A stretch of DNA of 42,066 nt from a virus (Duplodnaviria; Heunggongvirae; Uroviricota; Caudoviricetes): positions 1 through 42,066 of the IMG/VR virus record IMGVR_UViG_2579778919_000006, one strand, 5' to 3'. The notes beneath the pieces are model-generated. The model searched no databases and was not told where the DNA came from. It saw nothing but the letters and a program-made list of their open reading frames with translations. Both the position numbers and the translations under genes were made by a program. Shown here piece after piece: positions 27,564 to 28,517 of this stretch. Each line of letters opens with the position of its first letter. Within the stretch, counting starts at the first letter, position 1.

Positions 27564-27594
27564 AATAAAAAAAGCCCGCTTTTGATAGCGGGCT
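27564..27594 (-). terminator. intrinsic terminator in the late leader
   Basis: 7-bp stem agcccgc/gcgggct followed on the minus strand by a T-run. Confidence 0.6.
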
Positions 27595-27743
27595 AATGAG
27601 TTGACTATTTGTAAGGTAGGTGTGAGTAAGACTTATGCTCAGAGGTGAAGCTGTATCGGCTGATTCACTATCGGTCCAGGAGAACCACCGGGCATTCAGT
27701 TACTTCCCACAACTCAAAGCGTAGCAGCAGTTTGCAAAACCAT

Positions 27744-27771
27744 AAAAAAAGGCCTGCGTTTAATGGCAGGC
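27744..27771 (-). terminator. intrinsic terminator in the late leader
   Basis: 6-bp stem gcctgc/gcaggc followed on the minus strand by T7. Confidence 0.55.
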
Positions 27772-27988
27772 TCTCAAGGAATTTGAAACTTGTATTGTAG
27801 TTGTCATGGTGCCGGGTGCCTCCCGGTGACTCTACTCCAGCCAGCAAAGTCGCGCGCATACCTGCAGATAGCAGTTGGCTGGAACGCCCTTTCGCTTAGA
27901 AAGGATTCACCACAGAAATAAATTACGCCGAACTTATTCCTGCAGTCAATGAGATTAGCCATTGCTTCCTGATGGTTGTCTTACAAAT

Positions 27989-28011
27989 GAAAAAACCTCG
28001 CCGAAGCGAGG
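27989..28011 (-). terminator. intrinsic terminator in the late leader
   Basis: 6-bp stem cctcgc-cgaa-gcgagg followed on the minus strand by T6. Confidence 0.55.
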
Positions 28012-28208
28012 CTATTTGAATTTGAGGCACCTCACCCAACAAACCACCCGAGGTTAACTGGATTTTAACGAGATGCTTTTGGATGAGCGCTGAACCCAAA
28101 GGTCAGCATTTTCACACAGCAATTTTGCAAAAAGCAGCGCCCATTCAAAACTAGGTCGCTTTTCAGTCACTCCGGGGACCCCATCATCGCAGACCGAAAA
28201 GCTTAAAC

Positions 28209-28283
28209 TGGAGCGGGCAGCGGGAATCGAACCCGCATCATCAGCTTGGAAGGCTGAGGTAATAGCCATTATACGATGCCCGC
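28209..28283 (-). tRNA. tRNA-Gly (anticodon UCC)
   Basis: reverse complement folds as a cloverleaf with anticodon loop CTTCCAA, T-loop GGTTCGATT and 3' CCA. Confidence 0.85.
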
Positions 28284-28286
28284 ATA

Positions 28287-28362
28287 TGGTGCCGACTACC
28301 GGAATCGAACTGGTGACCTACTGATTACAAGTCAGTTGCTCTACCTACTGAGCTAAGTCGGC
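28287..28362 (-). tRNA. tRNA-Thr (anticodon UGU)
   Basis: reverse complement GCCGACTTAGCTCAGTAGGTAGAGC...; anticodon loop CTTGTAA; 3' CCA. Confidence 0.8.
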
Positions 28363-28364
28363 AG

Positions 28365-28438
28365 TGGTCCGCCACCGGAGCCTCGAACCCCGTACCACAA
28401 CACCTGGGTTGCCGCTCTTCCCGATGAGCTAGTGGCGG
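28365..28438 (-). tRNA. tRNA-like element, anticodon unresolved (possible degenerate tRNA)
   Basis: acceptor, D and T arms fold (T-loop TTCGAGG, 3' ACCA) but the best anticodon-arm pairing GCAAC/GTTGT leaves a 6-nt loop. Confidence 0.45.
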
Positions 28439-28440
28439 TC

Positions 28441-28517
28441 TGGTGGCCCTTGCTGGACTTGAACCAGCGACCGGGCGATTATGAGTCGCACGCTCTAACC
28501 AACTGAGCTAAAGGGCC
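28441..28517 (-). tRNA. tRNA with CAU anticodon (Met or Ile2-lysidine type)
   Basis: reverse complement GGCCCTTTAGCTCAGTTGGTTAGAGC...; anticodon loop CTCATAA; T-arm GGTTCAAGTCC; 3' CCA. Confidence 0.75.

What the first reader, a model, noticed from the sequence alone, without database searches (positions are those of the whole stretch)
27564..28517. Late leader with four tRNA genes (one atypical) followed by three tandem intrinsic terminators
Four tRNA genes (Gly-UCC, Thr-UGU, a CAU-anticodon tRNA, and a tRNA-like element) lie on the late strand upstream of the lysis genes, as in Stx-type lambdoid phages. The third element folds acceptor, D and T arms, but its anticodon arm pairs best with a 6-nt loop, so it may be a degenerate or unusual tRNA. 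Three hairpin terminators with T-runs then precede the holin, implying that lysis and structural gene expression depends on terminator read-through.
Basis: partly seen in the sequence, partly recalled or inferred. Interest (0 to 1): 0.45.

Follow-up and report, generated by a model that had tools for sequence, protein, structure and literature searches.

The report
Lambdoid late leader with tRNA mimic
This is an ordinary lambda-type prophage control region (antiterminator-dependent late leader, a small tRNA cassette, stacked terminators) that also carries a conserved tRNA-shaped gene with a too-short, highly variable anticodon loop; that gene belongs to a widespread family for which I found no description and whose role is unknown.

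Summary
On the minus (late) strand lie tRNA-CAU (an Ile2/ileZ type), an atypical tRNA-like element "X" (28438..28365, 6-nt loop CCAGGU), tRNA-Thr(UGU) and tRNA-Gly(UCC). Three strong intrinsic terminators and the holin follow.

The architecture is the known lambdoid/Stx-phage kind. Next come an antisense gene of unknown function (ORF316), a conserved promoter dedicated to the tRNAs, the cassette, and three terminator-ended RNA modules, the middle one being STnc100.

Thr and Gly are exact copies of host thrU and glyT.

X is not a sequencing error. The identical sequence occurs in 27 fetched loci. It is a homologue of Stx-phage argN (tRNA-Arg UCG). It belongs to a subfamily found in prophages of at least 8 enterobacterial genera. 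In this subfamily the cloverleaf body is conserved as tightly as real tRNAs (p-distance 0.01-0.04). The loop is only 5-6 nt, and a central triplet is nearly saturated (nucleotide diversity, pi, 0.6-0.7; 25 loop variants). The Rfam tRNA model rejects it.

Most likely X is a non-decoding, selected tRNA mimic; its function is not shown. The overall region is ordinary, and the X family is a new variant of a known kind.

The parts
29702..30553 (-). Q-type late antiterminator gene (283-aa ORF; probable ATG at 30538)
   Evidence: PF03589 Antiterm, E=8.9e-54. phrog_127 'anti-termination protein Q-like', E=4.6e-101.
29653..29682 (-). PR'-like late promoter: -35 TTGATT (29682-29677), 18-nt spacer, -10 TATGCT (29658-29653). 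It is followed by the conserved initial transcribed sequence TTCTAATCATG.
   Evidence: Read from the sequence. Conserved at the same place directly after Q in 20 relatives whose Q proteins are 35-100% identical. Promoter activity is inferred, not shown.
29590..29613 (-). tR' intrinsic terminator, about 55 nt after the PR' start. It lies back to back with the stop codon of ORF316.
   Evidence: Terminator scan. Hairpin -12.1 kcal/mol, z -2.6. A hairpin plus T-run is present at this position in all 20 relatives.
28643..29593 (+). ORF316, a gene of unknown function. It is antisense to late transcription and sits between tR' and the tRNA promoter.
   Evidence: phrog_7003 (unknown function), E=3.5e-118. 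No Pfam, PADLOC or NCBIfam family. Only 15 homologue clusters, all Enterobacterales. The same arrangement occurs in E. coli FAM21845.
28527..28555 (-). Promoter-like element dedicated to the tRNA cassette: -35 TTGCAA (28555-28550), 17-nt spacer, -10 TATCTT (28532-28527). It ends 10 nt before the first tRNA.
   Evidence: Both hexamers are conserved in 10 relatives (alignment A2) and before ileZ in Stx2 phage Min27 as TTGCAG-17-TATTAT. It matches 8 of 12 consensus positions, below the generic scan's threshold. Activity is inferred.
28441..28517 (-). tRNA with anticodon CAU, of the Ile2 (ileZ/ileX-like, lysidine) type
   Evidence: ARAGORN. Rfam 69.2 bits. NCBI's PGAP annotation pipeline calls the identical gene tRNA-Ile in FAM21845. 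It is 93.5% identical to a chromosomal tRNA-Ile.
28365..28438 (-). X: a tRNA-like gene homologous to argN. It has an intact acceptor stem (C1-G72), D arm and T arm and an encoded CCA. Its anticodon stem GCAAC/GUUGU closes a 6-nt loop, CCAGGU.
   Evidence: ARAGORN 'tRNA-???' with a 2-nt anticodon. No Rfam tRNA hit at E<=1. Family analysis.
28287..28362 (-). tRNA-Thr(UGU), an exact copy of host thrU
   Evidence: ARAGORN. Rfam 73.8 bits. 100% identical to the chromosomal tRNA-Thr of E. coli.
28209..28283 (-). tRNA-Gly(UCC), an exact copy of host glyT
   Evidence: ARAGORN. Rfam 64.9 bits. 100% identical to the chromosomal tRNA-Gly.
27988..28208 (-). Leader module 1: conserved non-coding RNA ending in terminator T1 (hairpin 28013-27994 plus T-run)
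   Evidence: Terminator scan. -13.4 kcal/mol, z -5.0. Conserved in HK639, L221, L256 and others, with compensatory stem changes and frame-breaking indels. The overlapping 71-aa ORF (phrog_30175) starts inside tRNA-Gly and is probably spurious.
27740..27946 (-). Leader module 2: STnc100-family sRNA ending in terminator T2 (hairpin 27771-27752 plus T-run)
   Evidence: Rfam RF02076, 53.1 bits against a gathering score of 47. The type copy scores 207.7 bits just downstream of stx2B in phage Min27. Hairpin -12.8 kcal/mol.
27566..27739 (-). Leader module 3: conserved non-coding stretch ending in terminator T3 (hairpin 27594-27573 plus T-run), about 100 nt before the holin start
   Evidence: Terminator scan. 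-15.1 kcal/mol, z -5.6. Conserved in HK639, L221 and L256. Annotated as a terminator in HK639.
27216..27464 (-). Holin of the P21 S type, with the dual-start motif MIRYM (ATG at 27464 and at 27452)
   Evidence: PF04971, E=3.7e-21. phrog_20 holin. Start codons read from the sequence.
26163..27214 (-). Endolysin (26675-27214) and Rz-like spanin (26163-26696)
   Evidence: PF00959 phage lysozyme, E=8.9e-21. phrog_214 Rz-like spanin, E=5.1e-58.

Best explanation
The region is the Q-dependent late-operon leader of a lambda-like prophage (GpA/Nu1 terminase, lambda portal, J tail tip). A separately promoted tRNA cassette has been built into it.

Proposed working:
- RNA polymerase starts at PR', directly after the Q gene. 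Without Q it stops at tR' after about 55 nt.
- With Q it becomes terminator-resistant. It then runs antisense through ORF316, through the tRNA cassette and through terminators T1-T3 into holin, endolysin, Rz and the structural genes.
- The cassette's own promoter makes the tRNAs in the lysogen as well. Polymerases from that promoter are not Q-modified, so T1-T3 stop them.
- The terminator stack therefore insulates the lethal lysis genes from a constitutive promoter. It also forms the 3' ends of leader RNAs, with STnc100 in the middle.

Three cassette members are working tRNAs: Ile2-CAU and exact copies of host thrU and glyT. They decode AUA, ACA and GGA, which the phage's ORFs use at 12%, 23% and 17% within their codon families.

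The fourth member, X, descends from the Stx-phage argN tRNA-Arg lineage and has lost a canonical anticodon loop. It is co-transcribed and presumably cut out by RNase P like its neighbours, giving a 74-nt tRNA-shaped RNA with a CCA end that cannot decode. Its body is under tRNA-grade purifying selection, while the central loop triplet varies freely. I therefore take it to act through its tRNA shape, as a mimic or competitor for tRNA-binding factors, and not as an adaptor.

Shown: the anatomy, the homologies and the conservation patterns. Inferred: promoter activity, Q read-through, processing of X, and any trans-acting role. I put the mimic/decoy role at about 0.35.
For: - Gene content and order.
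- PR'-tR' is conserved directly after Q in 20 relatives.
- The tRNA promoter hexamers are conserved in 10 relatives and in Stx2 phage Min27. In relatives a terminator precedes that promoter.
- T1-T3 are strong hairpins, conserved with covariation and annotated as terminators in HK639. STnc100 scores 53.1 bits.
- Thr and Gly are 100% identical to host thrU and glyT. The full array occurs in 602 of 5426 complete E. coli genomes.
- Codon usage of the window's ORFs.
- X is about 80% identical to a 77-nt tRNA that fills the same slot in relatives. Canonical members of the family are annotated 'argN: tRNA-Arg' in Stx2 phages.
- The slot after the phage Ile2 tRNA is nearly always filled by this family.
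- Cloverleaf pairs covary across the family: acceptor pair 7-66 is C-G in 45 sequences and U-A in 35, and anticodon-stem pairs covary too. One allele has a compensatory D-stem change.
- Nucleotide diversity (pi): scaffold 0.058 per site, triplet 0.61-0.71.
- One identical scaffold carries 7-8 different loops.
- Over 120 array pairs the p-distances are: X scaffold 0.013/0.040, neighbouring tRNAs 0-0.024, flanking leader 0.096, upstream region 0.217, triplet 0.49.
Against: - No expression, processing or charging data exist for X.
- The generic promoter scan does not call either promoter.
- Scaffold conservation is partly inflated by how members were found, namely exact-match seeds in the 5' or 3' part. 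Each half was, however, free to vary in the scan seeded on the other half.
- Arrays without X exist, so X is not needed for the neighbouring tRNAs.
- Many triplets are not natural anticodons (AGG, ACA, AUA, AUG), which fits neutrality better than mimicry of particular tRNAs.
- The family contains clearly decayed members in other prophages and a chromosomal relic in E. coli.
Confidence: 0.6

Rival explanations
1. X is a dead tRNA gene. It is an argN-type tRNA inactivated by a 1-2-nt deletion in the anticodon loop, and it hitch-hikes between two useful tRNAs with no function of its own. The loop drifts. The body looks conserved because the cassette spread recently and recombines with intact copies.
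For: - The Rfam tRNA model rejects X.
- The argN family shows many decayed copies in other prophages, with broken T-loops and 66-nt deletions.
- A solitary relic is fixed in the E. coli chromosome.
- Closely related arrays differ by single steps in the triplet, as drift would give.
- Arrays lacking X exist.
Against: - Flanks of arrays with different loops are 5-30% diverged, yet the 68-nt body shows 1-4% divergence, the same as bona fide tRNAs.
- 25 loop variants sit on about 17 scaffolds, across at least 8 genera.
- The few body changes include paired, compensatory ones.
- No short-loop member in the samples has a broken T-loop or D-loop.
Confidence: 0.25
2. X is a counter-defence decoy. Its loop mimics the anticodon loop of tRNAs that are attacked by anticodon nucleases. 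The triplet is hypervariable because of an arms race with such nucleases, which include prophage-borne ones.
For: - The triplet is near saturation while the body is fixed.
- The window's loop plus stem start, CAGGUGUU, is identical to that of E. coli tRNA-Leu(CAG), whose loop is UUCAGGU.
- Loop alleles containing CAG account for more than half of the loci.
- Lambdoid prophages are reported to carry tRNases. The Gifsy-1 GpA terminase cleaves tRNA-Leu PQTV (PMC11610961). [quoted passage not shown] The window encodes a GpA-type terminase and a J protein.
Against: - The CCAGGU allele is not linked to GpA-type terminases in other loci.
- Several triplets (AGG, ACA, AUA, AUG, UCA, UUA) match no standard E. 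coli anticodon (my own knowledge of the E. coli tRNA set).
- The data do not separate neutral variation from diversifying selection.
- A stoichiometric decoy against a catalytic nuclease is mechanistically weak.
Confidence: 0.2
3. X is a working adaptor with unusual decoding. Candidates are doublet or quadruplet reading, frameshifting, or suppression through a non-standard loop that may be remodelled by opening the C31-G39 pair.
For: - The body is intact, the CCA is encoded, and the T-loop and G18G19 are standard.
- The loop has the format [C]-NNN-purine-U, which resembles positions 34-38 of a normal loop.
- ARAGORN reads the 73-nt alleles as 7-nt loops on a 4-bp stem.
Against: - U33 is missing.
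- In the 7-nt reading, position 37 would be U and position 33 would vary.
- Triplets vary almost at random, which is incompatible with one amino-acid identity on a fixed body.
- I know of no decoding tRNA with a 5-6-nt loop (own knowledge). A phrase search of the paper library for six-membered, shortened or truncated anticodon loops returned only three papers, and their titles and abstracts do not concern such tRNAs; I did not read their text.
Confidence: 0.05
4. The functional unit is DNA, not RNA. The palindromic arms RCAAC/GTTGT around a variable 5-6-bp spacer would form a recombinase core, an att-type site or a protein-binding site. tRNA genes would then act as mosaic junctions.
For: - There is an inverted repeat with a variable spacer.
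- Module boundaries often fall at tRNA genes: HK639 keeps only the 3' half of tRNA-Gly, and arrays differ in composition.
- X alleles are shuffled relative to their flanks.
Against: - Conservation covers the whole cloverleaf, including compensatory pairs in the acceptor, D and anticodon stems. A short DNA site would not need that.
- No recombinase gene is consistently adjacent.
- X lies in the middle of the prophage, not at its ends (one search places the integrase at the far end of the window).
Confidence: 0.05

Closest known systems
The ileZ-argN-argO tRNA cassette of Stx-converting lambdoid phages (e.g. Min27, 933W)
   Same: It occupies the same position, downstream of Q/PR'/tR' and upstream of the lysis genes. 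The first gene is the same (an Ile2-CAU tRNA), preceded by the same promoter-like element. X is a sequence homologue of argN in the same second slot.
   Different: argN has a canonical 7-nt loop CUUCGAA (anticodon UCG) and scores 54.8 bits with the Rfam tRNA model. X has a 6-nt loop and gets no hit. Here argO and stx are replaced by exact copies of host thrU and glyT.
Lambda-type Q antitermination: the PR' - short leader RNA - tR' unit (lambda 6S RNA; StxS in Stx phages). Named from established knowledge.
   Same: A Q gene is followed at once by a promoter, a short leader and an intrinsic terminator. This unit is conserved in 20 relatives. The lysis and structural genes lie further downstream on the same strand.
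   Different: The Q protein is of the PF03589 type. An antisense gene, a second promoter with a tRNA cassette and three more terminators lie between tR' and the holin. No functional test was done here.
Prophage late-leader sRNAs: STnc100 (RF02076), PasD, and PasA/PasC (Zhu, Shabalina & Storz, bioRxiv 10.64898/2026.05.13.724894)
   Same: Module 2 matches STnc100 above the Rfam gathering score. That paper places the Pas sRNAs, each ending in an intrinsic terminator, directly next to the holin-lysozyme operon and near PF03589 Q genes, and it relates PasD to STnc100.
   Different: The match is weak: 53 bits against 208 bits for the Stx2-phage copy. Modules 1 and 3 match no Rfam family. I could not obtain Pas sequences, so identity with PasA/PasC is untested.
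Stable tRNA-like RNAs of unknown function inside the phage T4 tRNA cluster (species 1 and 2, rnaC/rnaD). Cited from my own knowledge, not checked here.
   Same: They are non-decoding, tRNA-like RNAs embedded in and co-processed with a phage tRNA cluster, and their function is still unknown.
   Different: There is no sequence relationship. T4 is a virulent myovirus. No hypervariable triplet has been reported for them.
Phage tRNAs that evade or offset anticodon nucleases (e.g. T5 tRNA-Lys against PARIS, and anticodon-loop variants in phage tRNAs). Cited from my own knowledge. Related prophage tRNases are described in PMC13043305 and PMC11610961.
   Same: These are phage-borne tRNA genes in which the anticodon loop is the part that varies. 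The biological setting is the same: lambdoid prophages that encode or trigger tRNases.
   Different: Those tRNAs keep a 7-nt loop and still decode. X cannot. No link between X and any nuclease was found.

Membership tests
Canonical elongator tRNA (for X) | Cloverleaf with acceptor, D, anticodon and T arms; T-loop UUCRANN; G18G19; 3' CCA | tested here: met
   Parsing of 81 unique family members gives 7/4/5/5-bp stems with covariation. X has T-loop UUCGAGG and D-loop AUCGGGAA, and its CCA is encoded.
Canonical elongator tRNA (for X) | 7-nt anticodon loop with U33 and a purine at position 37 | tested here: not met
   The loop is CCAGGU, 6 nt, closed by C31-G39, and ARAGORN reports a 2-nt anticodon. 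Sister alleles have 5-6-nt loops without a conserved U33.
Canonical elongator tRNA (for X) | Detected by the Rfam tRNA covariance model RF00005 (gathering score 29 bits) | tested here: not met
   There is no hit at E<=1 over 28365-28438. The short-loop allele in L149 and the K-12 relic give no tRNA hit at the E<=0.01 cut-off used there. argN scores 54.8 bits and the 'Lys-like' variant 44.4 bits.
Stx-phage argN family (for X) | Sequence homology and the same slot immediately after the phage Ile2-CAU tRNA | tested here: met
   The family shares the 5' 16-mer CCGCCAYTAGCTCATC, the T arm and the 3' acceptor strand. X is about 80% identical to the 77-nt slot-mates. Canonical members are annotated argN.
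Stx-phage argN family (for X) | Anticodon UCG, i.e. arginine decoding | tested here: not met
   The loop is CCAGGU. The short-loop class carries 17 or more different triplets, none of them UCG.
Lambdoid Q-dependent late operon | Q antiterminator gene immediately upstream of a promoter plus terminator unit | tested here: met
   PF03589, E=8.9e-54. The PR'-like hexamers and the tR' hairpin are conserved in 20 relatives.
Lambdoid Q-dependent late operon | Lysis cassette and structural genes downstream on the same strand, behind terminators | tested here: met
   Holin, lysozyme, Rz, Nu1, GpA, portal and J are all on the minus strand. T1-T3.
Lambdoid Q-dependent late operon | Q-dependent read-through of the terminators | not testable with these tools
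   This needs reporter or transcript assays with and without Q.
STnc100 sRNA (RF02076) | Covariance-model score at or above the gathering score (47 bits), full-length match ending in a terminator | tested here: met
   53.1 bits, model positions 1-206 of 206, 27946..27740 on the minus strand.
PasA/PasC sRNAs | Sequence or structure match to PasA/PasC, located directly upstream of the holin-lysozyme operon | tested here: inconclusive
   The position fits for module 3 (27739-27566), according to sections 15 and 18 of bioRxiv 10.64898/2026.05.13.724894. No Pas sequence or model was available, and no Rfam family matched.
tRNA-Ile2 (lysidine, ileX/ileZ type) for the CAU tRNA | CAU anticodon on an Ile2-type body rather than a Met body | tested here: met
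   NCBI's PGAP annotation pipeline labels the identical gene tRNA-Ile. It is 93.5% identical to a chromosomal tRNA-Ile. It is homologous to the ileZ of Min27. Lysidine modification itself is not testable here.

The most novel reading that the evidence does not exclude
The short-loop X genes form an undescribed class of phage tRNA mimics. Their three central loop bases would be a specificity determinant under diversifying selection, for example tuned to bind, titrate or mis-direct particular anticodon nucleases or other anticodon-reading host or prophage factors. On this reading the 25+ loop alleles on a fixed body record an arms race in enterobacterial lambdoid prophages.
Probability: 0.2. Interest if true: 0.8.

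Novelty: new variant of a known kind. Interest (0 to 1): 0.5.

Why it matters
The leader architecture itself is textbook lambdoid biology. Its main value is to show how a constitutive tRNA promoter can sit upstream of lethal lysis genes: stacked terminators insulate them, and only Q-modified polymerase passes.

The atypical element is the part worth attention. Annotation pipelines skip it or label it 'tRNA-OTHER'. It nevertheless belongs to a family present in prophages of many Enterobacteriaceae, with a relic in 5189 of the 5426 complete E. coli genomes searched. It shows an unusual signature: tRNA-grade conservation everywhere except three loop bases, on a loop too short to decode.

If the RNA is made and acts as a mimic, it would add a new player to the tRNA-centred conflicts between phages, prophages and hosts. 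If it is inert, it is still a useful case of how strongly tRNA shape can be preserved in a non-decoding gene, and a warning for tRNA annotation.

Tried and rejected
1. Sequencing error as the cause of the 6-nt loop. Rejected: the identical sequence is in 27 fetched loci, and sister alleles also have 5-6-nt loops.

2. RNA-based (put-type) antitermination. I suspected this because HK639 was the best hit. Dropped: both HK639 and the window encode Q next to this leader, and no such RNA family matched.

3. Naming the E. coli K-12 relative 'ptwF', from memory. Withdrawn: the only text found pairs ptwF with thrW. The K-12 element lies between yahL and yahM and is unannotated.

4. A co-varying partner in cis for the loop. 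The reverse complement of each loop within +-1.5 kb gave 160 hits against 152+-13 with shuffled loops, with no positional peak.

5. X as a decoy for the phage's own GpA terminase. The CCAGGU allele mostly occurs with other terminase types.

6. Functional pairing of X with ORF316. ORF316 accompanies CCAGGU in about 17 loci, but it also accompanies CUUGGG and UUAAU alleles, so this is linkage and not evidence of function.

7. Identifying ORF316. Pfam, PADLOC, NCBIfam and a PDB sequence search gave nothing. The AlphaFold model has pLDDT 66.8, and Foldseek against the PDB gave no match with E<1.

8. Coding potential of the leader. Four small minus-strand ORFs and one on the plus strand were tested. 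Only one hits a PHROG, and it starts inside tRNA-Gly and is broken by indels in relatives.

9. Literature searches for ileZ/argN/argO and for short anticodon loops found nothing usable.

10. Separating diversifying selection from neutrality at the triplet. X alleles are shuffled relative to their flanks by recombination, so pairwise comparisons cannot decide.
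Full report
**1. The observation**

ARAGORN finds four genes on the minus strand of the window:
- tRNA-Met/CAU, 28517..28441
- a 'tRNA-???' whose anticodon is given as two bases, meaning a 6-nt loop, 28438..28365
- tRNA-Thr(UGU), 28362..28287
- tRNA-Gly(UCC), 28283..28209

The Rfam tRNA model accepts the three ordinary ones at 64.9-73.8 bits. It gives nothing for the odd one even at E<=1.

The terminator scan finds exactly three hairpin-plus-T-run sites on the same strand, at 28013-27994, 27771-27752 and 27594-27573. 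The count is not above the shuffles (2.0+-1.4). The hairpins themselves are strong, at -12.8 to -15.1 kcal/mol with z between -3.5 and -5.6.

Downstream on the same strand are a P21-type holin, a lysozyme and an Rz spanin. Further on come Nu1, a GpA-type terminase, a lambda-type portal and a J tail-tip protein.

**2. The surroundings and the real start of the late transcript**

A 283-aa Q-type antiterminator (PF03589, E=8.9e-54) lies at 30553..29702 on the minus strand. Directly after its stop codon the sequence reads, in order:
- TTGATT
- an 18-nt spacer
- TATGCT
- the motif TTCTAATCATG
- a hairpin with a T-run, 29613-29596

I aligned the 230 nt after Q in 20 relatives whose Q proteins are 35-100% identical to this one. 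The hexamers, the TTCTAATCATG motif and a terminator about 55 nt downstream are all conserved. This is the classical PR'-short leader-tR' unit of lambdoid phages (established knowledge).

A 316-codon plus-strand gene, ORF316 (28643-29593), lies between tR' and the tRNAs. It belongs to phrog_7003 and its function is unknown. Q-modified polymerase would have to transcribe it antisense.

**3. The tRNAs have their own promoter-like element**

The 50 nt before the first tRNA are conserved in many relatives. Alignment of ten of them shows an invariant TTGC at the -35 position and a TAT..T -10 box 17 nt later. The -10 box ends 10 nt before the tRNA. In the window these are TTGCAA at 28555-28550 and TATCTT at 28532-28527.

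Stx2 phage Min27 has TTGCAG-17-TATTAT at the same place before ileZ. In several relatives a terminator lies just upstream of this element. The tRNAs therefore cannot depend on PR' in a lysogen.

The generic scan misses the element because it matches only 8 of 12 consensus positions. Activity is inferred from conservation alone.

**4. The leader between tRNA-Gly and the holin**

The leader is 92-93% identical to the late region of phage HK639, where the three homologous hairpins are annotated as terminators. HK639 keeps only the 3' half of tRNA-Gly at the junction.

Alignment with HK639 and two viral contigs shows three conserved modules, each ending in one terminator. T1 shows compensatory stem changes. 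In one relative an extra gene is inserted after T1.

Module 2 matches the STnc100 sRNA family at 53.1 bits, against a gathering score of 47. The type copy scores 207.7 bits and lies just downstream of stx2B in Min27, next to AsxR.

A recent preprint places the Pas sRNAs, each with an intrinsic terminator, directly beside the holin-lysozyme operon of lambdoid prophages. It also relates PasD to STnc100 (bioRxiv 10.64898/2026.05.13.724894). Modules 1 and 3 match no Rfam family.

The one leader ORF with a PHROG hit starts inside tRNA-Gly and is broken by indels in relatives. The leader is therefore non-coding.

**5. How the region most likely works**

Polymerase from PR' stops at tR' unless Q has modified it. 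Q-modified polymerase reads through tR', ORF316 (antisense), the cassette and T1-T3 into the lysis and structural genes.

Polymerase starting at the tRNA promoter is not Q-modified and is stopped by T1, with T2 and T3 as back-ups. This gives a reason for the stack: it insulates the holin from a promoter that is active in the lysogen. It also produces terminated leader RNAs.

All of this rests on anatomy and conservation. Nothing was measured.

**6. The three ordinary tRNAs**

tRNA-Thr(UGU) and tRNA-Gly(UCC) are 100% identical to the chromosomal thrU and glyT of E. coli, where tyrU lies between them.

The CAU tRNA is labelled tRNA-Ile by NCBI's PGAP annotation pipeline in E. coli FAM21845, which carries the same array at 100% identity. 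It is 93.5% identical to a chromosomal tRNA-Ile.

The window's ORFs use ATA for 12% of Ile codons, ACA for 23% of Thr codons and GGA for 17% of Gly codons. From memory these fractions are about 1.5-2 times the E. coli values, which fits codon supplementation.

The full four-gene array (at least 80% coverage) occurs in 602 of 5426 complete E. coli genomes.

**7. The atypical element X**

Its sequence folds as follows:
- acceptor stem CCGCCAC/GUGGCGG, with C1-G72
- D arm GCUC-AUCGGGAA-GAGC
- anticodon stem GCAAC/GUUGU closing the loop CCAGGU
- variable loop GGUA
- T arm CGGGG-UUCGAGG-CUCCG
- A73, then CCA

In related phages the same slot holds a 77-nt gene about 80% identical to X, with loop CCUUUAA. 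ARAGORN calls it tRNA-Lys, and it scores 44.4 bits with Rfam.

I scanned public collections with two seeds: the shared 5' 16-mer, and, separately, a 3' 21-mer. This gave about 210 members. The commonest are canonical tRNA-Arg(UCG) genes, annotated 'argN' in Stx2 phages.

A third scan was anchored only on the neighbouring Ile2 tRNA. It shows that the slot after that tRNA is almost always occupied by this family. X is therefore a derived homologue of argN.

**8. The short-loop subfamily**

X's own subfamily is 73-74 nt long. It occurs in prophages or chromosomes of Escherichia, Enterobacter, Citrobacter, Buttiauxella, Dryocola, Pseudescherichia, Pluralibacter, Salmonella diarizonae and Rosenbergiella. 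The usual arrangement is Ile2-X-Thr-Gly.

Every member has a 5- or 6-nt loop of the form [C]-NNN-purine-U on an invariant RCAAC/GUUGU stem. There are 25 different loops.

Three measurements describe the conservation pattern:
- Among 35 unique sequences found with the 3' seed only, nucleotide diversity (pi) over the 43 free body positions is 0.058 per site. At the three central loop positions it is 0.71, 0.69 and 0.61, against a maximum of 0.75.
- One body, identical at every position outside the loop, carries seven loops in the full-length comparison. Its 5' part carries eight.
- Over 120 pairs of complete arrays the p-distances are: upstream region 0.217, leader module 1 0.096, the three neighbouring tRNAs 0-0.024, X body 0.013 (5' part) and 0.040 (3' part), triplet 0.49.

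Family-wide, stem pairs covary. One allele has a compensatory D-stem change, GCUC/GAGC to ACUC/GAGU.

The body is thus constrained like a real tRNA, while the triplet is free or diversifying.

Two caveats apply. Seeds bias the sample towards intact bodies, although each half was free to vary in the scan seeded on the other half. X alleles are also shuffled relative to their flanks by recombination, so I cannot separate neutral saturation from positive selection at the triplet.

**9. What X does**

X cannot be a standard adaptor. It has no U33, its loop is 5-6 nt, and its triplets include ones that are not natural anticodons.

It is unlikely to be a plain pseudogene, given the body conservation across genera. 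Other branches of the argN family do decay visibly in other prophages.

I found no cis partner for the loop. I found no link to GpA-type terminases. ORF316 is linked to the CCAGGU allele by ancestry only.

Two leads remain untested:
- The window's CAGGUGUU is identical to the 3' part of the anticodon loop and the start of the stem of E. coli tRNA-Leu(CAG). The Gifsy-1 GpA terminase is reported to cleave exactly that tRNA (PMC11610961).
[quoted passage not shown] The window encodes both a GpA-type terminase and a J protein.

My best reading is that X is a processed, non-decoding tRNA mimic that acts through its body. I put about 0.35 on a trans-acting mimic or decoy role. For the formal rivals I put about 0.25 on hitch-hiking, 0.20 on a loop-specific anti-nuclease decoy, and 0.05 each on unusual decoding and on a DNA site.

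**10. The chromosomal relative**

An 81-nt relative lies between yahL and yahM in 5189 of 5426 complete E. coli genomes. It is 81.5% identical to X and has loop CCAGGA on a longer stem. It is unannotated, and Rfam's tRNA model does not hit it.

In Enterobacter the CAGGAU-type X lies about 5 kb from a yahO homologue. This suggests an old prophage remnant at that locus.

**11. Verdict**

The region as a whole is a known kind of system and is well explained.

The X subfamily matches no Rfam family, and I found no description of it in the paper library. I rate it a new variant of a known kind, namely phage tRNA or tRNA-like genes. Interest is moderate: the conservation signature is striking and directly testable, but no function is shown.

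Noticed in passing
window 28643-29593 (+): ORF316 lies between tR' and the tRNA promoter and is antisense to late transcription. It has only 15 homologue clusters, all in Enterobacterales, and no Pfam, PADLOC or NCBIfam family. Cys/His residues C52, C57, H61, H79 and C81 are invariant, which suggests a zinc site. In the AlphaFold model only the C-terminal helical part is confident (mean pLDDT 66.8), and Foldseek against the PDB finds nothing.
   Followed up: partly
L006:1501-1581 (E. coli K-12, between yahL and yahM; the yahM start overlaps it): An unannotated 81-nt tRNA-like relic of the same family is present in 5189 of 5426 complete E. coli genomes. It has a 7-bp anticodon stem and the loop CCAGGA. 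ARAGORN calls it tRNA-Ser(GGA), and the Rfam tRNA model gives no hit. A yahO homologue lies near the X-type gene in Enterobacter loci.
   Followed up: partly
L001:4901-5055 (phage HK639): HK639 has a tRNA-Asn after its first post-Q terminator, followed by only the 3' half of tRNA-Gly fused to the conserved leader. This is a recombination junction inside a tRNA gene. Array composition varies widely between phages (Met-Gly, Met-Arg-X, X-Thr only), which suggests that tRNA genes act as mosaic joints.
   Followed up: partly
window 28054-28269 (-): A 71-aa ORF matches phrog_30175 at E=3e-51. It starts inside tRNA-Gly and covers the non-coding leader module 1, and relatives carry frame-breaking indels. 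This PHROG family is probably built from mis-annotated ORFs.
   Followed up: partly
L003:3085-3161, L002:4088-4164 (phages 606R7, PhiR47_1 and others): The slot-mate 'tRNA-Lys(UUU)' has C33 instead of U33 (loop CCUUUAA), an A-C mismatch in the T stem, C1-G72 and U73. It is identical in more than 17 loci, scores 44.4 bits with Rfam, and is left unannotated in some phage records. It may be a non-standard or cleavage-resistant Lys tRNA.
   Followed up: no
window 29643-29653 (-) and relatives: The motif TTCTAATCATG just after the PR' -10 box is conserved across 20 relatives with divergent Q proteins. It contains a -10-like TAATCA and could be the sigma-dependent pause or Q-loading element.
   Followed up: no
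window 26675-27464 (-): The holin has the dual-start motif MIRYM and matches the P21 S family. The endolysin begins with a Gly/Ala-rich hydrophobic stretch (MASIRAKLSAAMLSLIAAGASAPV). Together these look like a pinholin plus SAR-endolysin pair.
   Followed up: no
L392:6073-6332 (Stx2 phage Min27): The type STnc100 copy (207.7 bits) lies immediately downstream of stx2B, with AsxR (88 bits) on the opposite strand abutting its end. The Stx2 late leader therefore has the same order, with a terminator-ended sRNA after the inserted accessory-gene slot, as this window.
   Followed up: no
L138, L141, L181, L186; L355, L358, L360 and others (IMG/VR prophage contigs): Other branches of the argN family are visibly decaying. 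There are 66-nt forms that lack the anticodon arm. There are also 81-nt forms with a disrupted T-loop (GGGGGCGGGTCC) that recur in many contigs. These are useful as an internal contrast to the intact short-loop class.
   Followed up: partly
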